Positions 1 to 8,568 of a stretch of 64,000 bases of DNA are shown here, piece by piece. The position numbers and the translations under genes are program-made. Under the pieces are notes generated by a model. That model worked only from the letters and a program-made list of their open reading frames with translations. It was not told the DNA's origin and ran no database searches. The stretch's first letter is position 1. Each line of letters starts with the position of its first letter. The stretch is taken from the NCBI GenBank assembly GCA_002422535.1, contig DIVY01000017.1:15176-79175 (forward strand). The letters are read 5' to 3'. This DNA is from Bacillales bacterium UBA6120 (GTDB lineage Bacteria > Bacillota_I > Bacilli_A > RFN20 > CAG-826).

Positions 1-38
1 GGGATCAACCAATCAGGTTTTTGAAAGGATAGAAAAAA

Positions 39-1739
39 ATGAAACAATTAAATAACGATAATGCTGCTAATCGAACTAGTTATGTTGGACATGTTTATAA
101 CGTGGGGGAAAAAGAATATAAGAAAAGAATTCTTGATGGTCTACCAAAAGAATGGGCGGATTTACATCGTACCGGAGCAATCCACATTCATGATTTGGAC
201 GCCTATGATCTTACCTATAATTGTTTGACTTTTGATATACTTCAAAACTTCCCTTATGATGAGTTTCGAAGTCTAAGTGGTGCTGGTCAAATACTACATT
301 TATTCGATTGGTTTAAAAACCTTTTTACTACATTAGGAAACGAGCAATCAGGGGGAATGGCTTTTGCAAACTTTGATAATGAGGTGGCCACAATTCTTGA
401 AAACCTAGGCATCGATTTTCATCACCACCAAGAGCTGATTGAAGCATCTATTGCCGAGTTAATTCTTTGGTGTAATGGGAACCACTCGAGGATGGGTCAA
501 ACAAGTTACTATGTTTCCTTAAATCTTGGCTTAGCGAATTCAGAAGTCGCTAGATTCATCGCTCGGACAGTCATTAACAAATTCGAATCATTAGGAGAAA
601 AGGTTTTTAAGCCCAATATTGTCTTTAAGGTAGTTGAAGGAATAAATGCATCCCAAGGCAATCCTAATTTTGATTTACTGGAATTAGCCTTACGATGCAG
701 CGCAAAAAAAATGATTCCTACCTATCTTCTTTGTGATTGCAAAGAGGACCGAGATACCGATCCCCATAAATTGTCAGTCATGGGCTGCCGCACACGAGTA
801 GTGGCAAATCTATTTGGAGAAGACGGAGCGATTGGAAGAGGAAACATTTCTAATATTTCCATCAACCTTCCTCGCATTGCCCTGAAGATCGATGAAAGTC
901 ATCCAGAATTATCTTTTGAAGATAAGATGGACCTATTCTTTAAAAAATGGGATCAAGTGGCAATGACAACAAAGGATATTCTTTTGGATCGTTATCAAAA
1001 GCTATGCCAACGGGATGCCGATGATTTTCCAACAAATCTTAGTCATAAGCTCTGGTGTGTCGATTTTATAGAAAAAGAAAATTTAGAAAAAGTGTTTAAA
1101 CACGGAACATTGGCATTAGGTTTTATTGGAATAAGCGAAGCAATCGAAGTTCTTTTCGGGAAGAAATATTATTCAAACATGAATACCTACATTGCCACGC
1201 TTGGATTCATCAAACATATGAGGGACTATTGCGATTTTCTAAAAAATGAATACAAACTAAATTTTTCCCTACTAGCCACTAGCGGTGAATTGATTAGTGG
1301 TAGATTCATCGACTACGATAAAGAACTTTTCAAACCACGGGTAGATATTTTCTCAAAGGGATACTACACGAATTCATTCCATGTAGATGTCGATAGTGGG
1401 CTGCCTGGATATAAAAAAATCCAACTAGAGGGATTGTTTCATGAATACTGCAATGGGGGTTCGATTACCTATGTTGAACTTGGAGAAGCTCCATTGGAGA
1501 ATGTAGAGGGATTAAGAGAATACATTGAGATTGCCACGAAGGCTGGCGTTCATTATTTGGGCTTCAATTTTCCAAAGGATGTATGTAATTTTTGCGGTAC
1601 CTCTGGTGTATTCGATTACTGCCCCAGTTGTAACAGTAAAGATATCACCAGAATCAGAAGAGTATCCGGTTATCTTGAAATTCTTGATGGCTTTACAAAA
1701 GGAAAAATAGCTGAAGAAAAAAACCGGAAGAAGAATTGA
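39..1739 (+). CDS. nrdD: anaerobic ribonucleoside-triphosphate reductase (class III RNR), compact 566-aa form
   Basis: C-terminal glycyl-radical motif RRVSGYL preceded by a Zn-ribbon CNFCG...CPSCN. The ORF has full length in one frame. Its TGA stop overlaps the next ATG (TGAATG). Confidence 0.85.
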   Translation: MKQLNNDNAANRTSYVGHVYNVGEKEYKKRILDGLPKEWADLHRTGAIHIHDLDAYDLTYNCLTFDILQNFPYDEFRSLSGAGQILHLFDWFKNLFTTLGNEQSGGMAFANFDNEVATILENLGIDFHHHQELIEASIAELILWCNGNHSRMGQTSYYVSLNLGLANSEVARFIARTVINKFESLGEKVFKPNIVFKVVEGINASQGNPNFDLLELALRCSAKKMIPTYLLCDCKEDRDTDPHKLSVMGCRTRVVANLFGEDGAIGRGNISNISINLPRIALKIDESHPELSFEDKMDLFFKKWDQVAMTTKDILLDRYQKLCQRDADDFPTNLSHKLWCVDFIEKENLEKVFKHGTLALGFIGISEAIEVLFGKKYYSNMNTYIATLGFIKHMRDYCDFLKNEYKLNFSLLATSGELISGRFIDYDKELFKPRVDIFSKGYYTNSFHVDVDSGLPGYKKIQLEGLFHEYCNGGSITYVELGEAPLENVEGLREYIEIATKAGVHYLGFNFPKDVCNFCGTSGVFDYCPSCNSKDITRIRRVSGYLEILDGFTKGKIAEEKNRKKN

Positions 1740-2255
1740 ATGAAATATTACATTTCGGATTTGCATTTAGGCGATACGCTAGTGTTTAAGTTGTGTGGAA
1801 GAGAAATCACTATTGAACAATTCAATGACCTAATTATCAATAATTGGAATCGTGTCGTGCAAGAAGATGACGAAGTATATATTCTTGGGGATCTAGCGAA
1901 TGAAGAATACAAGGATTGCATCATTTGCCTACGACAACTCTATGGTAATAAGCATCTGATTATTGGAAATCATGACATCGAACTCCTTGAAGATGAAGCA
2001 TTTCGAATCCAATTGCAGAAGATAATGTCGATTAAACACGAAGACCTTATCGAAGATAGTGGTCGACTTGTCTTCCTTAGTCATTATCTACTCCTAGACT
2101 GGTCAGAATGCCATCGAGGAAGTTACCTGATTTATGGACGCATACACAACAAGTCCATACCAGAAATTAAGTCATTTTATAATTATAAACCTGCATTCAA
2201 TGCTAGCACTGATGTGACTGGATTCATACCGCAGACCCTTGATGAATTAATGTGA
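1740..2255 (+). CDS. calcineurin-like metallophosphoesterase (occupies the position where the NrdG activase is usually found)
   Basis: Motifs ISDLHLGD, ILGDL and IIGNHD fit the metallophosphatase motifs I-III. There is no CxxxCxxC radical-SAM cluster motif. It is translationally coupled to nrdD. Confidence 0.65.
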   Translation: MKYYISDLHLGDTLVFKLCGREITIEQFNDLIINNWNRVVQEDDEVYILGDLANEEYKDCIICLRQLYGNKHLIIGNHDIELLEDEAFRIQLQKIMSIKHEDLIEDSGRLVFLSHYLLLDWSECHRGSYLIYGRIHNKSIPEIKSFYNYKPAFNASTDVTGFIPQTLDELM

Positions 2256-2274
2256 TTAAAGGAGGCAAACAAAG

Positions 2275-2862
2275 ATGAACCATATATCAATTGAAGGCAT
2301 GGATGGCGTTGGCAAATCAACTACATGCAAATTATTGGCCGTTCGTCTCGGATATCAATTTGTTGAAAAACCCCTTCATTACCTACTTGACGACCATGAT
2401 GAAGAGATTACCCAATATCAAAAGGTCGCCAAGCGTGTGAATTCAAATAATAATCGTACCTTCACAGCTTGGTACTATGGTTTGAACAATATCTATCTTT
2501 ACGAAAAATTTAAAGGAATTAACATCGTCACTGATCGGCATATTGTTTCCAATTACTGCTGGAGTGGTACGAAAGACAATGTCGATATCTATCGATTGAT
2601 TTTAAATAAAATTGGAAAACCCAAACTAACGGTAATACTTTACGCTAGGCCAGAAGTCATAACCGAACGACTAACTCAAAGAAACGTGTGTGATTCTGAT
2701 ATTGCAAAAGTCGCTCTTAGCGAAGCGGCATACGAAAAGATGATCTATTTTTGCGAGAGGATGAAAATCAATTATGCCGTCGTGGATACAAGTGACAAAG
2801 TGGTTGAGGAAGTCGTCGAAGAAATCATCAGAAAAGTCATGGAGGTAAATAAAGATGAATAG
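2275..2862 (+). CDS. P-loop nucleotide kinase, thymidylate kinase (Tmk)/deoxynucleoside kinase-like
   Basis: N-terminal ISIEGMDGVGKST Walker A. VTDRHIVSNYCW matches the Tmk DRY region. PKLTVILYARPEVITERL matches the Tmk lid. SD AAGGAGG lies upstream. The stop overlaps the next start (ATGAATAG). Confidence 0.7.
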   Translation: MNHISIEGMDGVGKSTTCKLLAVRLGYQFVEKPLHYLLDDHDEEITQYQKVAKRVNSNNNRTFTAWYYGLNNIYLYEKFKGINIVTDRHIVSNYCWSGTKDNVDIYRLILNKIGKPKLTVILYARPEVITERLTQRNVCDSDIAKVALSEAAYEKMIYFCERMKINYAVVDTSDKVVEEVVEEIIRKVMEVNKDE

Positions 2863-5311
2863 CATTGAAACATATCGATTATCCCGAGATATGAAGTATG
2901 AAGCTCTCTATTGGTCTTTAGGGTTTGAAGAATTAGTCACATCAATTTTCACGAAAAAGTACCGTTCAGATCTGATTGCCATAATCGATGTTGATAAACA
3001 AGTTGTAGATTTTTCCGGAAGAATATCGATTATCAATGGCGATGCCTTAAAACTCAATACACACAAAAGCTTTGTGGTACTTGAATGCATCGACAAACTT
3101 TTGTCAATGGGGTATGTCCCAAACGAAATTATTGTTGATTTAAACAATGAGTACGACGTTTTTTTGAATGGCATCTACATTAAGTGTGATGAATGGAGTC
3201 AAAAATTGACCGCAGATGTTATAGTATCACCGGGAACATTTCTTTCGATAAGGTATCAATCTCGACTCGTTAGCGGAGTCATCGAAAGAAAAACCTTGAT
3301 TAATGATGGTTCGGGCTCGTTATTCCAATTCGGAATATTCGAAAACGAGACGAAGCTAGAAAAATACAAATTGTACAACTCATATGAAATTCAAAGCGAT
3401 GACTTTCTAATCAATGGCGGAGTCGCAACAAAATACATTGGTACATCTTCAAAAGCTTTTGTTCCCGAAGGTGTTCGAGAACTGGCGTCCTGTCTTTTTT
3501 GGGATAACCCGACGATTGAAGAAGTAGTTTTACCCGAATCATTGGTGGATCTTGGTGGGGATACGTTCTTTAATTGCGTCAATCTAAAAACAATCACCAT
3601 CCCCCATAATGTTAAGTTCATGGGTAACAATCCATTTGCAGGTTGTATTAATATCCAAATTCAAAACAATTCTCCTTATTTTCATTTAGAAAACGGCGCT
3701 TTGTATAATTGGAATTACAATAAAATCATTTTTTATTCGCCTAGTAACAAAGAACAAAAATACCTAATCAAAGATGGCACGAGAATCGTCGGAAAACATT
3801 CCTTCTATCTATGCAATAACCTTGAATGTGTAAAAATTCCTACCTCTGTCATTAAATTAGAAAATAACCCATTTTCGGGTTGTGAAAAACTTGATCTAAT
3901 AAACGGATCTGACTATTACCATGTAATTGATAAAGTAATTTATAACAGGGAAATGGACACGATTACGGGTTGCCTTAACTCCATCAGTTGCCCTGAATTA
4001 ATACTTCAAAACGTAAAACGAATTGGGAGAAATTCTTTTTGGAACTGCAAAGGACTGATAAATGTCGTCATTCCAAAGACACTAGAAGTTATAGGCTATA
4101 ATCCATTCGTTGGATGTTCGAATATCGAGTTTGAATCGCTTTCGTCAAAGTTTGTAGTCGAGAATCATGCTTTATTCATTGAGGATAAAAGCAAACTGAT
4201 TTGTTATCCACCAAAATACGCGGTAGGAGAAGTATTTTTACCAGATGAAGTCATAACTCTCGAACGTGGGGCGTTTTCAGGATGCGATAAGATGACTAAT
4301 ATCAATTTGCATAATGTGGCAGTCATAAGCAAAACCTGTTTCACTAATTGCCTCAATTTGGAAAAGATTTACTGTTCAGATATGGTTTCTTATATTGGCG
4401 AATGGGCGTTTGCTCATTGCCAAAACCTTAAAGAAATCTCGGTTTATAAGGATTGTTATCTCGATAAGAACTTGACATTGAATTCTACTGCAAGAATAGA
4501 AATCAGAAAAGAAAGAACAAACTATATCGTTGAATCAGATAATCTTTTCACTTTTAATTCGATGACAAGAAGTTATACAGGAAAAATTAAGTCAATATTG
4601 ATCGACCCACCATATAACACGAGAATTGATGCAATTGGTTACCAAGATCAGGGATTTTCTGGGGGATATTGTACATTCATGAAAAAACGCATCGAATTAT
4701 GTCATGTATTACTATCAGAAGATGGCTTTTTAGTAATTAACATCGATAAAGGTGAAGTACATGAGTTATCTAGGTTATGCAATTATGTCTTTGGACATAA
4801 AGCGAAAATCTATAAATGGGAAAAACTTCATCCCCTATTTGATAAAAACAGGAATGTTAATCCAAGAAAGAAATTGGTTAAATATGAATACATTATCCTC
4901 ATTTCAAAGAAGAAAAAAACAAGGCTTAATTTGATTTCAAAACCTTTGATTGTAAAAGGTAAAATCAAAGAAAAATGGAAGAAAATTCCCAAAATTCTTC
5001 GATGTTTTGGCACCACTTCTTCTGCGAAAGATGAAATCGAAGAAATTTTTGGCACACGGGATTACTTTTCTACCCCTAAGCCCGTGAAACTAATGAAAGA
5101 ACTGATCAGAGCAACGACTACAAAAGATTCGTTAATATGCGATTTCTTCGCCGGAAGCGGAACAGTGGGACAGGCTACAATTGAACTAAATCAGGAGGAT
5201 TGTGGGAAACGACAGTATATTCTCGTTAGTAACTCCGAGAATAATATCTGCCAAGAGGTGACACTAAAACGAATCCAAAAAAAAGATCCAAGTGTTGTTT
5301 TTCTTCGATGA
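2855..5311 (+). CDS. fusion protein: unknown N-terminal domain, BspA-type leucine-rich repeats (LRR_5) and a C-terminal beta-class N6A/N4C DNA methyltransferase domain
   Basis: Repeats of the form IPxxVxxIGxNPFxGCxNL span roughly aa 230-560 (e.g. TITIPHNVKFMGNNPFAGC, CVKIPTSVIKLENNPFSGC, VVIPKTLEVIGYNPFVGC, GAFSGCDKMTNINL, GEWAFAHCQNLKEISV). The C-terminal domain carries motif IV ILIDPPYN, FSTPKPVKLMKELI and motif I DFFAGSGTVGQA, in the IV-then-I order typical of Mod/beta-class MTases. There is no signal peptide. Confidence 0.8.
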   Translation: MNSIETYRLSRDMKYEALYWSLGFEELVTSIFTKKYRSDLIAIIDVDKQVVDFSGRISIINGDALKLNTHKSFVVLECIDKLLSMGYVPNEIIVDLNNEYDVFLNGIYIKCDEWSQKLTADVIVSPGTFLSIRYQSRLVSGVIERKTLINDGSGSLFQFGIFENETKLEKYKLYNSYEIQSDDFLINGGVATKYIGTSSKAFVPEGVRELASCLFWDNPTIEEVVLPESLVDLGGDTFFNCVNLKTITIPHNVKFMGNNPFAGCINIQIQNNSPYFHLENGALYNWNYNKIIFYSPSNKEQKYLIKDGTRIVGKHSFYLCNNLECVKIPTSVIKLENNPFSGCEKLDLINGSDYYHVIDKVIYNREMDTITGCLNSISCPELILQNVKRIGRNSFWNCKGLINVVIPKTLEVIGYNPFVGCSNIEFESLSSKFVVENHALFIEDKSKLICYPPKYAVGEVFLPDEVITLERGAFSGCDKMTNINLHNVAVISKTCFTNCLNLEKIYCSDMVSYIGEWAFAHCQNLKEISVYKDCYLDKNLTLNSTARIEIRKERTNYIVESDNLFTFNSMTRSYTGKIKSILIDPPYNTRIDAIGYQDQGFSGGYCTFMKKRIELCHVLLSEDGFLVINIDKGEVHELSRLCNYVFGHKAKIYKWEKLHPLFDKNRNVNPRKKLVKYEYIILISKKKKTRLNLISKPLIVKGKIKEKWKKIPKILRCFGTTSSAKDEIEEIFGTRDYFSTPKPVKLMKELIRATTTKDSLICDFFAGSGTVGQATIELNQEDCGKRQYILVSNSENNICQEVTLKRIQKKDPSVVFLR

Positions 5312-5555
5312 ATGTGTCTAATTACATGGTTTGCAATGTCTGGTTAGAGGTTTCTAATGAAATAAATCAAAAACAAAAATGAAATATATAATTTATAATA
5401 TATCAATTCGAATATATCATCTTTTTTAGTGAAGAAAAGATAGTGATTAGCAAAACCAAGTTATAGTTTCAATATAAAGCATGTTATAAAAAAGGCTAAG
5501 TAGTGGTTTTTAAAAAAATAGGAAAATATTTAATCGATTAATAAGAGGAGTTAGC

Positions 5556-6743
5556 ATGGATTATTTGCGGAACCACTATATCCCAAAATTTCTGTTGAAA
5601 AACTTTTCAGAAAAGGCCGAGAATGGAAAGTGGAAAATAAATTATATAAATCTCGGTTCTCGAAAAGTAGAACGGCGAAATCTTAAGGCAGTTTTTGCCC
5701 AGAATAATTTTTATGATATTCCGAGTGCTTCTGACACGAAGATACTCGAGAAACGCTTCAATTTGAAAATCGAAACTCCAATGGCTCAAATTGTGGACAA
5801 GATTATCAGTTCTAACGAAGGATACATCACAATTACAAGGAAAGAACTGGGAATAATAAAGAAATTCATTCTGATTCAGATGTATAGAAATCCAGCGAAT
5901 CAAGGTCAATATCAAAATGCTTCAGAAAAGGACTCATTCACATTCTCAAAAGCTTTCAAGAAAGAATCAGAAACGGATATTGATTATTGGAAACGGGAAA
6001 TGCTTTATGTGATTGAGCAATAATGGGATACGTTAATTACTCAAACTGATATGCCAGGAGTTCACCAGGTTGCCAACAATATCTTTACCGGGTATTTGAC
6101 TTTCTTCACAACACAAAATGAATTTATATTAGCTGATGTTCCGGTTTTTTCTGAGCGATTTCCTATGGAAATTCAAAAAAATCAGGAAGCCGATTTCATC
6201 AAATATGCTAGAGAATCTAGCAGGTCAAGAGGACTGAGTGAAGAACAAGCAGAAGCTAACATGAGAAAAGAGATACGTGAAAAATCAAGTTACATTGAAA
6301 ATTTCTTTGTCGTGGTACTTGCTCCTGGTCTTGCAATAGCTGTAATAAATGTGATTTGGAAGTTGCATTATCTTTATGATGGTCTTAATGGTCGTTTACA
6401 TAGTCCTATTTTAGGTAATCCAAAAAACCTAAAACTACCTCAAACCTATTATGCTAATAAACACATGATAAAGTATGAGGACGAAATCAAAAAATATAAG
6501 AATCCCAAAGATCAATATAGATACAATCTAATTCCATTAACTCAGCAAGAGACCGACTATCTTATGACTCTTTCACTCAACGAAAGTAGATTATTTATCG
6601 GTTTTAAAAACAAAGAAAGCATTCTTCGACAAGTCACTATTTACAACCGCTTGACAAAAAAAGAGTTAATTAACTTAAAAATCAATTTGCAGGATATTCC
6701 AAATCTAATTAATAATTTCAATTATGAGCGTGATAAGGGTTAA
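5556..6743 (+). pseudogene. DUF4238-family gene (Rst_DUF4238-like single-gene defence family) interrupted by one in-frame TAA at 6021-6023; ORFs 5556-6023 and 6051-6743 share a frame
   Basis: N-terminal HYIPKFLLKNF matches, from memory, the HY(V/I)P(Q/K)FYL(K/R)NF start of DUF4238. Both ORFs are in the same frame and are separated only by TAA plus 9 sense codons. The combined length is about 395 aa. An AT-rich promoter region and an RBS (AGAGGAG) lie upstream. Confidence 0.55.
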
Positions 6744-6930
6744 TCATATCATCATCTTTCAGCCATTCAGCGATTGATGGTTGCTAAAAACATTTCTTTT
6801 AGCATAAAATCAACTTAACGCTATTAAATTATTTGTCTCTTTTTCTTTTTTTTATGCTATACCTTTTAGCATATCCCCATTGTTAACCATACACCCCATA
6901 AGCGGGAGACAGCATTCATAGGAGGAATAT

Positions 6931-8568
6931 ATGTTTAAGAAGATGAATGTCGTTATCACTTCAATTGTGATGACGCTTAGCGTGCTTCTAAGTCTTTTTG
7001 TTTTGTATACGCCAGTTCCTACTGCTGATTCATCTGGATTCAGCGCGGTCCAGGCGGCTTCCTACATTAGTGAGATATCGAAAACACCACATGCCACTAG
7101 TGATGAACTTGAACATGAACGCGTGCGTTTATATTTGAAAGATACACTTTCGGAATTTGTCGGTGCTTCTAATGTGGTGGAGATGAACTACGCGAAAGAA
7201 GATGTCGATCCCGATTGTGAATATGACATTAAAAACTTACTAGCGACGATTCAGGGTACCTCGGATACTGGTATCATGCTAGTTGCCCATTACGACTCAC
7301 GGGGACATATTGGTCGCTCAGGCGAACTTGGTCGATCGTATGGCGCTGCTGATGATGGCTATGGTCTCGCGACGATGTTAGAGATTGCGCGTCTATATGG
7401 TAATCGAGACTTGTCAAACTCCATTTATCTGTTAATGACGGATGGAGAAGAGACGGGATTATATGGAGCCATCATGGCGGCGCAAGAAACGGCTTTGATG
7501 GATAAGATTGGCTTCGTGATTAATATTGAAGCGCGTGGCATTCAAGGCGCCGCTTATATGTTTGAGACTTCCACCAATAACAATAAAGTCATCGATTTCT
7601 ATCAACAAGCGAAACTTGAAGTGTCGTATAGCTTGGCTACGGCAGTATATACGGTGATGCCAAATATGACGGACTTTACCGCTTTCTTAGCCGTAGGCAA
7701 ACAAGGTGTGAACTTCGCAGTTCTCGATGGACTTAATTACTACCATTCACCTCTCGACAACTACGATAATATTGACCTGTCTTCCATCCAACATTACGGA
7801 AGCCAAATATTGCCAATGGTGGAAGAATTTGTCACCAATAGCGCTTACTCTGATGTCAATTATTTTGTCGGTACCCAAAATAGTGTCTTCTTTACCTTAT
7901 TACCAAATGTATTTGTGTCATATTCGGAAACCATGGCCATTATTATTAACATGCTTTTACTAGTTACTTTCATTGGTCTAGTGGTCTTTCTCGTCTTAAA
8001 AAAACAAGTCAAGTTACTCGCACTATTAAAGAACTTGGGATTTGTATTTGGTTCGCTTATTGTTACGGCAGTTATTGGACTATTCATCTCGAAGCTCATT
8101 GCCTTTATCGGAAGTGTTCCTTGGTCCATTACTTATGTAAGAATGCAAGGAACGGAACTTCCAACCATTTTAGTGATGCTTGGAACAATCCTAGGCTTCT
8201 CGTTCTTGATTCATCGGTTTATGAAACATAAAGAAGCGAAAGTATCGTTAATGCTTTCAGGTATCTTCCTTAATTTACTGTTAGCAACAGTAACGGGCTT
8301 TATTCTTTCAGGCGCCAGTTTCTTATTCATGATTCCCGCTTTAGTGGGCTTAATTGCTTTAATCGTTGATACCTTTGTTAAAAACAGGATTGTTAAGCAT
8401 GTGGCTTTTAGTCAAACTATCATTTGGAATGTGCTCATGATGATTCCCATTCTTTTCTCCTTATTCCTTTCCTTAACCGTGGGTGGTCTATTAGCGCTAC
8501 TCATCATTCAAACTTTATTCATGAGTGTGATGTTACCTTCGATCTTCTTACAACTAGAACTTAAATAA
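6931..8568 (+). CDS. membrane-anchored M28-family Zn aminopeptidase with a C-terminal polytopic membrane domain
   Basis: M28 metal-ligand motifs LVAHYDS, GAADDGYG and TDGEETGLYGA. An N-terminal TM is followed by 8 or more C-terminal TM segments. RBS AGGAGG. Confidence 0.8.
   Translation: MFKKMNVVITSIVMTLSVLLSLFVLYTPVPTADSSGFSAVQAASYISEISKTPHATSDELEHERVRLYLKDTLSEFVGASNVVEMNYAKEDVDPDCEYDIKNLLATIQGTSDTGIMLVAHYDSRGHIGRSGELGRSYGAADDGYGLATMLEIARLYGNRDLSNSIYLLMTDGEETGLYGAIMAAQETALMDKIGFVINIEARGIQGAAYMFETSTNNNKVIDFYQQAKLEVSYSLATAVYTVMPNMTDFTAFLAVGKQGVNFAVLDGLNYYHSPLDNYDNIDLSSIQHYGSQILPMVEEFVTNSAYSDVNYFVGTQNSVFFTLLPNVFVSYSETMAIIINMLLLVTFIGLVVFLVLKKQVKLLALLKNLGFVFGSLIVTAVIGLFISKLIAFIGSVPWSITYVRMQGTELPTILVMLGTILGFSFLIHRFMKHKEAKVSLMLSGIFLNLLLATVTGFILSGASFLFMIPALVGLIALIVDTFVKNRIVKHVAFSQTIIWNVLMMIPILFSLFLSLTVGGLLALLIIQTLFMSVMLPSIFLQLELK

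What the first reader, a model, noticed from the sequence alone, without database searches (positions are those of the whole stretch)
2855..5311. Cytosolic BspA-type leucine-rich repeats fused to a beta-class (DPPY) DNA methyltransferase: an apparently new architecture
The 818-aa ORF has three parts. An N-terminal region of about 180 aa has no recognisable motif. A run of about 330 aa contains six to eight LRR_5-type repeats (IPxxVxxIGxxAF/PFxGCxNL), a repeat type normally seen on Treponema/Bacteroides surface proteins. A compact C-terminal module of about 240 aa is a Mod-like N6A/N4C methyltransferase, with motif IV IDPPYN, FSTPKPVKL, and motif I DFFAGSGT. There is no signal peptide or TM, so the LRRs are intracellular. 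The segment between motif IV and motif I is short, so the LRR solenoid may serve as the target-recognition domain. Alternatively it could be a sensor, by analogy with NLR/Avs-type defence proteins. No restriction subunit is obvious nearby. The only candidate partner is the downstream DUF4238 gene, which carries a nonsense codon.
Basis: partly seen in the sequence, partly recalled or inferred. Interest (0 to 1): 0.85.

Follow-up and report, generated by a model that had tools for sequence, protein, structure and literature searches.

The report
LRR-armed DNA methyltransferase on mobile island
The gene is real: a cytoplasmic DNA methyltransferase core joined to a leucine-rich-repeat arm and a restriction-enzyme-like head, and it is the fused form of a common but undescribed two-gene pair carried on mobile elements of anaerobic gut bacteria, always behind a ribonucleotide-reductase/kinase operon.

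Summary
ORF 2855-5311 (818 aa) scores strongly for LRR_5 (1.6e-41) and N6_N4_Mtase (7.4e-32), with motif IV (DPPY) before motif I (FAGSGT), and has no membrane segment.

Three corrections apply:
- The "motif-less" N-terminus is a conserved restriction-endonuclease-like domain. It is related to the N-termini of type IIG enzymes but lacks a canonical (D/E)xK.
- The architecture is not a singleton. There are over 120 full-length clusters, and an even larger set in which the N-LRR protein (~535 aa) and a ~280-aa methyltransferase are separate, translationally coupled genes. Fusion or fission happened more than once.
- The pair is always the last cistron(s) of a mobile module, NrdG-NrdD-(phosphoesterase)-kinase-N-LRR-MTase. 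This module occurs on integrative islands and in one complete gut phage. In the window it lies in a low-GC island.

The methyltransferase is a type III Mod core stripped of its ~105-aa target-recognition domain and both termini, and no Res gene accompanies it.

Best reading: a DNA amino-methyltransferase whose obligatory N-LRR partner replaces the lost Mod parts. A new restriction-modification type remains possible. LRR as sequence reader and NLR-like sensor are poorly supported.

No paper in the searched library describes the family. Function is untested.

The parts
2855..5311 (+). 818-aa fused N-domain / LRR_5 / beta-class MTase gene. The start overlaps the kinase stop by 8 nt, with GGAGG 9 nt upstream.
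   Evidence: identical in independent assemblies
2855..3400 (+). N-terminal domain (aa 1-182, folded core ~11-150). Restriction-endonuclease-like fold related to type IIG N-termini. Invariant K14 E26 K34 H70 E77 C111 W114 S136 R137 E144. PD-like D101 is conserved in about 90% of sequences. There is no (D/E)xK: beta3 reads h-x-C111.
3401..4510 (+). BspA-type LRR_5 solenoid (aa 183-552). About 10 FxxCxxL units plus 3 hairpin inserts. An invariant polar stripe runs along it: D236, N258-N259, K314-H315, N337-N338, R392-N393, Y415-N416, R471, K493, E516-W517.
   Evidence: Pfam LRR_5 1.6e-41; PDB 4fs7, 4gt6, 4h09; AF2 pLDDT >90; invariants; repeat scan
4511..5311 (+). Compact beta-class amino-MTase core (aa 553-818), a type III Mod core without TRD, N-terminal or C-terminal extensions.
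   Evidence: Pfam PF01555 7.4e-32; PADLOC MTase_III 1.2e-44; PDB 6k0w, 7dsu, 4zcf; comparison with the 561-aa E. faecium Mod
4604..4615 (+). Motif IV, DPPY (aa 584-587), the catalytic motif.
4838..5020 (+). Residual variable region or mini-TRD (about aa 662-722: basic FDKNRNVNP loop plus three short strands). It overlaps aa 601-720, the most variable stretch among close homologues.
5141..5164 (+). Motif I, DFFAGSGT (aa 763-770), SAM binding. FSTPKP lies at 5066-5083.
39..1739 (+). NrdD, a class III ribonucleotide reductase, short form without ATP-cone. It is an upstream cistron of the same conserved module.
   Evidence: NrdD is upstream in 61 of 63 loci. 61-77% identical to the copies in the phage and in islands.
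1740..2255 (+). Metallophosphoesterase, an optional member of the module (34 of 63 loci).
2275..2862 (+). Thymidylate/dNMP-kinase-like P-loop kinase, directly upstream and translationally coupled to the target ORF.
   Evidence: Pfam Thymidylate_kin 1.1e-14; PADLOC PDC-M51B and VakA ~1e-15; adjacent in 73 of 77 loci
5556..6743 (+). DUF4238 gene inactivated by one in-frame TAA (6021-6023). It is a neighbouring defence-type gene, not a demonstrated partner.
   Evidence: PMC9122126
1..6800 (.). Low-GC island (31-39% GC, versus about 37-46% after 6800). It continues upstream beyond the window. Host genes (M28 peptidase onward) begin at 6931.

Best explanation
The ORF encodes a cytoplasmic, probably dimeric, SAM-dependent DNA amino-methyltransferase (m6A or m4C).

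Its catalytic core descends from a type III Mod subunit that has lost its target-recognition domain and both terminal extensions. In their place the core depends on an obligatory partner. That partner is an N-terminal restriction-endonuclease-like head, probably non-catalytic, carried on a rigid BspA-type LRR solenoid. In most relatives the partner is a separate protein translated just before the MTase. In the window's lineage the stop codon between the two genes was lost, and they are one chain.

The N-LRR part most likely engages the substrate and positions the stripped catalytic core on it. It does so through a conserved ligand-binding surface that does not vary with specificity. Any sequence preference would reside in the MTase's residual variable loop or in the head.

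The pair is the last part of a mobile DNA-precursor operon (NrdG, NrdD, an optional phosphoesterase, and a dNMP kinase). This operon is carried by integrative islands and at least one Ca. Heliusvirales phage of anaerobic Bacillota. The likely role is to methylate the element's (and host's) newly made DNA, for protection against restriction or as an epigenetic mark.

Shown here: domain identities, loss of the TRD, fusion/fission, operon linkage, island location, and purifying selection on every part. Inferred: DNA as the substrate, the partner's role, and the biological purpose.
For: Domains and motifs:
- LRR_5 and N6_N4_Mtase hits, DPPY before FAGSGT.
- The best sequence and structure matches of the core are type III Mods (6k0w, 7dsu, 4zcf). 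Compact beta-class MTases also match: M1.HpyAVI, M.MboIIA, M.RsrI, M.BceJIV.

Loss of Mod parts:
- The closest conventional relative is a 561-aa E. faecium plasmid Mod sitting next to a DEAD-box Res.
- The window core aligns to Mod residues 92-233 and 340-446 only. About 105 central aa, 91 N-terminal aa and about 115 C-terminal aa are absent.

Obligatory partnership:
- Of the 80 metagenome loci with the N-domain, all 70 with enough sequence have the MTase, either fused (63) or as the next gene (7).
- All six split loci whose gene tables were examined have the MTase immediately downstream.
- The split form has a TGATG stop/start overlap preceded by AAGGAG. One fused protein keeps the relic SD plus ATG in frame.
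- Fused and split forms interleave in an NJ tree.

Constraint on the partner:
- dN/dS is 0.07-0.15 in all parts.
- The N-domain and LRR are the least variable parts among close homologues.
- An invariant polar stripe runs along the LRR.

N-domain:
- The (D/E)xK position is hydrophobic-x-Cys.

Mobile context:
- The same block occurs in phage PV036423.1, in tyrosine-integrase islands and in a serine-recombinase island.
- The window region is a low-GC island.

Background:
- Beta-class MTases act as dimers with division of labour between subunits, and some work with non-catalytic partners, e.g. METTL3-METTL14 and MTA1-MTA9 (PMC7544214).
Against: - No methylation data exist, so substrate and specificity are inferred from family membership alone.
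- Compact beta-class MTases of 230-320 aa are active and site-specific on their own. The core may therefore not need help with DNA.
- The N-domain (median pI 5.0, net charge -7) and the LRR (pI 6.5) are not basic, as DNA-binding surfaces usually are.
- LRRs typically bind proteins.
- The tools returned no inter-domain geometry (only pLDDT and secondary structure; pTM 0.67; MTase part pLDDT 50-87). Contact between the LRR and the catalytic cleft could therefore not be examined.
- The strict linkage to NrdDG and the kinase is not explained by a simple protective methylase.
Confidence: 0.45

Rival explanations
1. A new kind of restriction-modification or defence module. The N-terminal domain is an active nuclease related to type IIG heads, the LRR is a ruler or DNA cradle, and the compact MTase protects self DNA. 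N-LRR would play the part of the R subunit, replacing the helicase-nuclease Res of type III systems.
For: - HMM hits of 30 of 32 family members to the N-terminus of type IIG REase-MTase models.
- E77 is invariant and a PD-like D101 is about 90% conserved.
- R-then-M gene pairing with translational coupling.
- The pair sits at the edge of mobile islands next to defence-type genes: DUF4238, Fic, a DEDDh exonuclease, and an Eco57I-domain/helicase cluster.
- The MTase ancestor is a type III Mod.
Against: - The canonical (D/E)xK is absent. The beta3 position reads hydrophobic-x-Cys in all sequences, and D101 itself is lost in some members.
- The N-LRR part is conserved at least as well as the MTase. 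Restriction subunits usually diverge faster (my own knowledge).
- The strict operon with NrdDG and the kinase is unusual for R-M systems.
Confidence: 0.2
2. The LRR is a protein-protein scaffold. It tethers the MTase to the co-encoded dNTP-synthesis enzymes (NrdD, kinase) or to the replisome, so that methylation is coupled to the element's DNA synthesis. This would be analogous in logic to the T4 dNTP-synthetase complex (my own knowledge).
For: - Synteny is near-invariant, with overlapping stop/start codons from kinase to N-LRR. The kinase is adjacent in 73 of 77 loci and NrdD is upstream in 61 of 63.
- LRR surfaces are conserved rather than diversifying.
- The N-LRR part is non-basic.
- LRRs are typically protein binders (general knowledge).
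Against: - There is no direct evidence of any interaction.
- The REase-like head has no obvious role in this model.
- Operon linkage can reflect co-regulation only.
Confidence: 0.15
3. One reading: the concave face of the LRR solenoid is the sequence-reading target-recognition domain of the MTase.
For: - The TRD is truly missing from the Mod-like core.
- The LRR is always present, in cis or encoded by the adjacent upstream gene.
- Nucleic-acid-binding LRRs exist, e.g. TLR3 and TLR9 (my own knowledge).
Against: - Among close homologues the LRR is less variable than the MTase's own aa 601-720 region. That region falls into two variant classes while the LRRs stay more than 93% identical.
- LRR dN/dS is 0.12, with no sign of diversification.
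- The LRR is near-neutral in charge.
- Compact beta-class MTases recognise sites without a large TRD (PMC7544214).
Confidence: 0.1
4. The MTase acts on a non-DNA substrate: a protein amide/amino group, RNA, or a free nucleotide made by the co-encoded enzymes. The LRR would present that substrate.
For: - (D/N)PPY amino-MTases include protein- and RNA-modifying enzymes, and sequence similarity does not fix the substrate (PMC7544214).
- LRRs usually bind proteins.
- The gene sits in a nucleotide-metabolism operon.
Against: - All close relatives and all model hits are DNA MTases of R-M systems. PF01555, PADLOC MTase_III at 1e-44, and 36-45% identity over the two conserved halves to a type III Mod encoded next to its Res.
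Confidence: 0.06
5. NLR/Avs-like sensor: the LRR senses a phage protein and switches an effector.
For: - Only the presence of an intracellular LRR, together with defence-type neighbours.
Against: - No STAND, NACHT or other NTPase domain appears in the protein, or in the partner gene in any locus examined.
- The fused enzymatic domain is a methyltransferase, not a known death effector.
Confidence: 0.03

Closest known systems
Type III R-M Mod subunits (EcoP15I Mod 4zcf, H. pylori Mod 6k0w, Mbo45V Mod 7dsu; E. faecium plasmid Mod WP_002346636.1)
   Same: Beta-class motif order, DPPY, FxTPKP and FAGSGT motifs. These are the best sequence, HMM and fold matches. Identity is 36-45% over the two conserved halves.
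   Different: The core lacks the ~105-150-aa TRD, the ~90-aa N-terminal region and the ~115-aa C-terminal region. No Res helicase-nuclease gene is adjacent in more than 80 loci. It is joined instead to an N-domain+LRR partner.
Compact stand-alone beta-class MTases (M1.HpyAVI 5hfj, M.MboIIA 1g60, M.RsrI 1nw6, M.BceJIV, TTHA0409)
   Same: Similar size (~230-320 aa) and fold of the catalytic core (Foldseek TM to target 0.5-0.7). Expected to act as dimers (PMC7544214).
   Different: Those enzymes work alone. This core is always encoded with, or fused to, the N-LRR partner.
Type IIG / IIB single-chain R-M enzymes (BpuSI 3s1s, DrdV 7lo5, RM.BsaXI 8w0p; PADLOC REase_MTase_IIG models PDLC03624 and PDLC03615)
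   Different: The spacer is an LRR solenoid rather than a helical connector. The MTase is beta class rather than gamma class. There is no C-terminal TRD. The catalytic (D/E)xK is not conserved.
BspA-like LRR_5 proteins (4fs7, 4gt6, 4h09, TpLRR 6mlx, PcpA 4cp6)
   Same: The same repeat type and hairpin inserts. Strong sequence and fold matches.
   Different: Those are secreted or surface proteins. This one has no signal peptide or anchor and is joined to DNA-enzyme domains. It also carries a family-specific NNPF(A/S)GC variant and an invariant polar stripe.
Heteromeric beta-class-derived MTases with non-catalytic partners (METTL3-METTL14; ciliate MTA1-MTA9)
   Same: The logic is the same: a catalytic amino-MTase core that depends on a non-catalytic partner for substrate engagement (PMC7544214).
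   Different: Those partners are degenerate MTase paralogues, not an REase-like domain plus LRR. They are eukaryotic, and no homology of the partners is implied.

Membership tests
Beta-class N6A/N4C DNA amino-methyltransferases (Pfam PF01555) | HMM match above the curated threshold | tested here: met
   111.5 bits versus a cut-off of 26.7, aa 578-781
Beta-class N6A/N4C DNA amino-methyltransferases (Pfam PF01555) | Motif IV (D/S)PP(Y/F) lies N-terminal to motif I FxGxG | tested here: met
   DPPY at 584-587, FAGSGT at 765-770
Beta-class N6A/N4C DNA amino-methyltransferases (Pfam PF01555) | Transfers methyl to an exocyclic N of A or C in DNA | not testable with these tools
   Needs a methylome or an enzyme assay
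Type III R-M Mod subunit | Closest sequence and structure relatives are Mod proteins | tested here: met
   PADLOC MTase_III 1.2e-44; PDB 6k0w, 7dsu, 4zcf
Type III R-M Mod subunit | Central TRD of ~100-150 aa between the two conserved halves | tested here: not met
   68 aa versus 151 aa in 6k0w. About 105 aa are missing versus the E. faecium Mod.
Type III R-M Mod subunit | Adjacent res gene (SF2 helicase plus nuclease) | tested here: not met
   No such gene is called next to the pair in any gene table examined, and none appears in the marker-based maps of 80 loci. The conventional relative does have one.
Type IIG R-M fusion enzymes | N-terminal PD-(D/E)XK endonuclease domain | tested here: inconclusive
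Type IIG R-M fusion enzymes | Conserved catalytic D...(D/E)xK | tested here: not met
   beta3 reads h-x-C111, and D101 is not universal
Type IIG R-M fusion enzymes | Gamma-class MTase followed by a C-terminal TRD | tested here: not met
   The MTase is beta class and ends the protein
BspA-like LRR_5 surface proteins | LRR_5 repeats | tested here: met
   1.6e-41, 4 stretches; about 10 units (9 matched by the scan)
BspA-like LRR_5 surface proteins | Secretion signal or cell-surface anchoring | tested here: not met
   No hydrophobic N-terminus or TM segment. The protein is fused or coupled to DNA-enzyme domains.
NLR / Avs / STAND defence proteins | Central STAND NTPase (NACHT/NB-ARC-like P-loop) | tested here: not met
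   No such hit in Pfam, NCBIfam or PADLOC

The most novel reading that the evidence does not exclude
N-LRR plus the stripped Mod core may be a previously unrecognised class of restriction-modification or methylation-dependent effector system. In it, an LRR solenoid carrying a type-IIG-like nuclease head replaces both the TRD and the Res motor. The system would be mechanistically coupled to a mobile ribonucleotide-reductase/kinase operon in gut mobile elements.
Probability: 0.17. Interest if true: 0.85.

Novelty: new variant of a known kind. Interest (0 to 1): 0.62.

Why it matters
Intracellular BspA-type LRRs joined to DNA enzymes are not described in the literature library searched here.

This family shows a type III Mod core that has shed its recognition domain. 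It has acquired an obligatory partner instead: a restriction-enzyme-like head on an LRR arm. Independent fusions and fissions prove that the two work together.

The family is abundant in human-gut and rumen metagenomes. It rides on islands and on a member of a very prevalent gut phage order. It is welded to an anaerobic ribonucleotide-reductase/kinase operon.

Working out what the N-LRR part does could have several consequences:
- It could reveal a new way of targeting DNA methylation.
- It could reveal a new R-M type.
- It could explain unassigned methylation motifs in gut methylomes.
- It could offer a modular methyltransferase scaffold.

Tried and rejected
N-domain searches that found nothing:
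- Pfam on each of 32 members.
- PDB sequences with a profile of the domain at E<=10.
- Foldseek against viral predicted structures, BFVD.
- A word-indexed homologue search, which returned only fragments of the same family.
- An HMM of the N-domain run against all ORFs of all fetched loci. It found the domain only in N-LRR genes.
- The afdb50 library was not available.

Collection scans:
- IMG/VR scans with the protein, with alignment A2 and with alignment A4 found only one true locus, L020.
- I therefore dropped the idea that this is mainly a free-phage gene. Most copies are on chromosomal islands.
- The representative search was swamped by giant LRR_5 proteins. It still yielded 4 full-length (plus 3 partial) fused and at least 5 split clusters at 50% identity.

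Other dead ends:
- The promoter/terminator scan gave fewer sites than shuffled controls.
- Four literature searches for LRR plus methyltransferase or for the operon, and one for PDC-M51, found no relevant paper.

Ideas rejected:
- DUF4238 as the partner of the MTase. It is a stand-alone defence gene, its position varies, and it is fused to a different neighbour in L025.
- The upstream Eco57I-domain/helicase cluster as the missing Res. The helicase has no counterpart in the other loci compared.
- A frameshift artefact in the phage record. The split form is the common natural state.
- A decaying pseudogene. dN/dS is 0.07-0.15 and the ORF is identical in independent assemblies.

Full report
**1. 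Observation**

The ORF at 2855..5311 (+) is present exactly as described: 818 aa, ATG start. A GGAGG lies 9 nt upstream, and the start overlaps the stop of the preceding kinase gene by 8 nt.

Pfam gives LRR_5 (PF13306, E 1.6e-41, four stretches) and N6_N4_Mtase (PF01555, E 7.4e-32, aa 578-781). DPPY lies at aa 584-587, FSTPKP at 738-743 and DFFAGSGT at 763-770. This is the beta-class order, motif IV before motif I.

No 19-aa window exceeds a Kyte-Doolittle mean of 1.09, so there is no signal-like or membrane segment. The LRR region spans aa ~183-552. It holds about ten FxxCxxL units (nine matched by the scan plus one read by eye at ~201-223) and three beta-hairpin inserts.

**2. The N-terminus is a domain, not a blank**

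Across 85-90 homologues that are 31-64% identical to the window protein, about 21 residues of aa 1-182 are invariant. They include K14, E26, K34, H70, E77, C111, W114, S136, R137 and E144.

- EcoR124I HsdR, Hjc, tRNA-splicing endonuclease subunits, BpuSI and DrdV.

Independently, 30 of 32 family members hit the N-terminal ~85 positions of PADLOC's type IIG REase-MTase model PDLC03624 (best 5e-15), and 19 of 32 hit PDLC03615. The window protein hits PDLC03624 at 4.5e-8.

The canonical catalytic triad is not there. A PD-like D101 is conserved in about 90% of sequences and E77 is invariant, but the (D/E)xK position reads hydrophobic-x-Cys in every sequence. I therefore call it an REase-like head of uncertain, probably absent, nuclease activity.

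Pfam, PDB sequences and viral predicted structures gave nothing for this domain.

**3. The methyltransferase is a stripped type III Mod**

- The best PDB sequence matches are H. pylori Mod 6k0w, Mbo45V Mod 7dsu and EcoP15I Mod 4zcf.
- The best PADLOC models are MTase_III (1.2e-44).
- Foldseek also matches compact beta-class enzymes: M1.HpyAVI, M.MboIIA, M.RsrI and M.BceJIV.
- The closest conventional relative found is a 561-aa E. faecium plasmid Mod encoded next to a DEAD-box Res.
- The window core aligns to that Mod's residues 92-233 and 340-446 only. It therefore lacks about 105 central residues (the TRD), 91 N-terminal residues and about 115 C-terminal residues.
- What remains between the halves is a ~60-aa basic loop with three short strands.

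**4. A populous family, mostly as two genes**

The word-indexed search returned 1277 hits. The best 120 are all full-length proteins of 815-822 aa at 61-64% identity (besides the window's own cluster), with the same two Pfam domains. Some are named "DNA modification methylase" by JGI or "uncharacterized protein [Firmicutes bacterium CAG:631]" by NCBI.

Searching with the N-LRR half of a phage homologue returned 120 clusters, all but one of 513-557 aa and carrying only LRR_5. Many stand for hundreds of sequences. One further fused protein of 846 aa appeared among them.

In all six split loci whose gene tables I examined, a 268-292-aa PF01555 gene follows immediately. The junction is a classic coupled one: TGATG preceded by AAGGAG in L017, and an 11-nt overlap in the phage. 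The fused protein P0263 still carries the relic SD plus ATG in frame.

In an NJ tree of the N-LRR part, fused and split forms interleave: P0263 nests among split forms, and the split P0277 nests among fused forms. Fusion or fission therefore happened more than once. This is strong Rosetta-stone evidence that the N-LRR part and the MTase act together.

**5. Context: the tail of a mobile DNA-precursor operon**

I looked at loci obtained by exact look-up and at 80 metagenome loci found with the N-domain.
- The MTase is present in 70 of 70 loci where sequence allows: 63 fused, 7 as the next gene.
- The dNMP-kinase-like gene is directly upstream in 73 of 77.
- NrdD is upstream in 61 of 63, and NrdG in 60 of 63.
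- A metallophosphoesterase is present in 34 of 63.
- A ~139-aa ORF is upstream in 44 of 47.
- A ~273-aa ORF (28 of 47) and DUF4238 (23 of 47) sit at the head of the module.

The collinear block from the ~273-aa ORF to the MTase, without the phosphoesterase, also lies in the complete Ca. Heliusvirales phage PV036423.1 from human faeces, next to its serine recombinase. The order is described in PMC11283538.

The block also lies in ~11.6-kb tyrosine-integrase islands that end right after the MTase, next to host ECF/TsaE genes. It also lies in an island with a large serine recombinase, a rolling-circle Rep and Fic. Only one IMG/VR contig carries the family, so most copies sit on chromosomal islands.

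In the window, positions 1-6800 are 31-39% GC against roughly 37-46% beyond. Host-type genes start at 6931. Upstream of the window the same genome has an Eco57I-domain protein, a 796-aa protein and a DUF2075-type helicase. At least the helicase is not shared with the other loci compared.

**6. How it most likely works**

Shown:
- A beta-class amino-MTase core with intact catalytic and SAM motifs.
- Loss of the Mod TRD and termini.
- Obligate co-encoding or fusion with the N-LRR part.
- Purifying selection on every part, with median dN/dS 0.07-0.15 over about 170 pairs.
- An island or phage location.

Inferred: the N-LRR part replaces what Mod lost, engaging the substrate and positioning the core. 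Beta-class MTases are thought to act only as dimers with division of labour, and some rely on non-catalytic partners (PMC7544214).

Several results argue against the LRR being a variable sequence reader:
- Among 119 close homologues the N-domain (mean pairwise identity 92.5%) and the LRR (91.2%) vary least. The MTase's aa 601-720 region varies most (80.7%).
- That region falls into two classes (70-80% and over 90% identity) among pairs whose LRRs are more than 93% identical.
- The LRR carries an invariant polar stripe, which points to a constant ligand.
- The N-domain and LRR are acidic to neutral (pI 5.0 and 6.5), while the core is basic (pI 8.7).

Rivals kept open are a new R-M type with an active head (0.2), a protein scaffold tying methylation to the co-encoded RNR and kinase or to the replisome (0.15), the LRR as TRD (0.1), a non-DNA substrate (0.06) and an NLR-like sensor (0.03).

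I could not examine LRR-to-cleft geometry. The structure tool returned only pLDDT and secondary structure (full model pLDDT 82, pTM 0.67, MTase part 50-87).

**7. DUF4238**

The neighbouring gene (5556-6743) is one reading frame broken by a single TAA at 6021-6023. It is identical in two independent assemblies. DUF4238 alone protects E. coli against T7 (PMC9122126). In many other loci an intact copy sits at the head of the module, and in L025 it is fused to the ~273-aa gene. It is a fellow passenger of the island rather than a demonstrated partner of the MTase.

**8. Comparison, novelty and verdict**

The protein works like a DNA amino-methyltransferase and is a member of PF01555.
- It is derived from type III Mod but fails two defining Mod features, the TRD and an adjacent Res.
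- It resembles type IIG enzymes in layout (head, spacer, MTase) but fails their catalytic motif, MTase class and TRD.
- It shares repeats with BspA-like surface proteins but is cytoplasmic.
- It is not an NLR.

No paper in the searched library describes the pair or the operon. Databases only auto-annotate it.

I rate it a new variant of a known kind. What replaces that claim is more interesting than a lone fusion: an abundant, conserved, mobile, two-part methyltransferase with an unexplained LRR-plus-nuclease-like partner, welded to an anaerobic RNR operon.

Noticed in passing
window 5556-6743 (TAA at 6021-6023); L027, L028: DUF4238 gene broken by a single in-frame nonsense codon, identical in two independent assemblies. 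Intact 410-491-aa copies sit at the head of the module in other loci. In L025 the gene is fused to the next (~273-aa) gene, giving 672 aa.
   Followed up: partly
L027 348-6995 (same genome, upstream of the window): A defence-island-like cluster just upstream of the module: an Eco57I-domain protein (579 aa), a 149-aa ORF, a 796-aa ORF and an SLFN-g3/DUF2075 helicase (623 aa). At least the helicase has no counterpart in the other loci compared.
   Followed up: no
window 2275-2862: The thymidylate-kinase-like protein matches PADLOC candidate-defence models PDC-M51B (2.6e-15) and VakA (5e-15). No paper on PDC-M51 was found.
   Followed up: partly
window 39-1739: NrdD is a short form (566 aa). It aligns only from about position 118-165 of full-length NrdD models, so it has no ATP-cone. 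It is 61-77% identical to the copies in the phage and in other islands.
   Followed up: no
window 1740-2255; L029-L108: The metallophosphoesterase between NrdD and the kinase is present in only 34 of 63 loci. In L105 and L108 it lies between the kinase and N-LRR instead.
   Followed up: partly
L098 1438-12331; L102: An inverted second copy of the whole module abuts the first (N-LRR, kinase, NrdD and NrdG on the minus strand). This is either a real inverted duplication or an assembly chimera.
   Followed up: no
L004 (CP091735.1, Clostridium sp. MAG): A 38%-identical full-length homologue is detectable by tblastn, but the region has only short ORFs. This suggests indel errors in the assembly or a decayed copy.
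   Followed up: no
L024/L025 847-12444; L017: The module forms compact integrative islands: an ~11.6-kb one with a tyrosine integrase, and another with a large serine recombinase, a rolling-circle Rep (REP_ORF2-G2P) and Fic. None has phage structural genes. They are possibly satellite-like elements.
   Followed up: partly
window 6800-6930: A sharp GC step at about 6800 marks the right edge of the island, just before an M28-family membrane peptidase gene. An M28 peptidase gene also flanks the island in L017.
   Followed up: no
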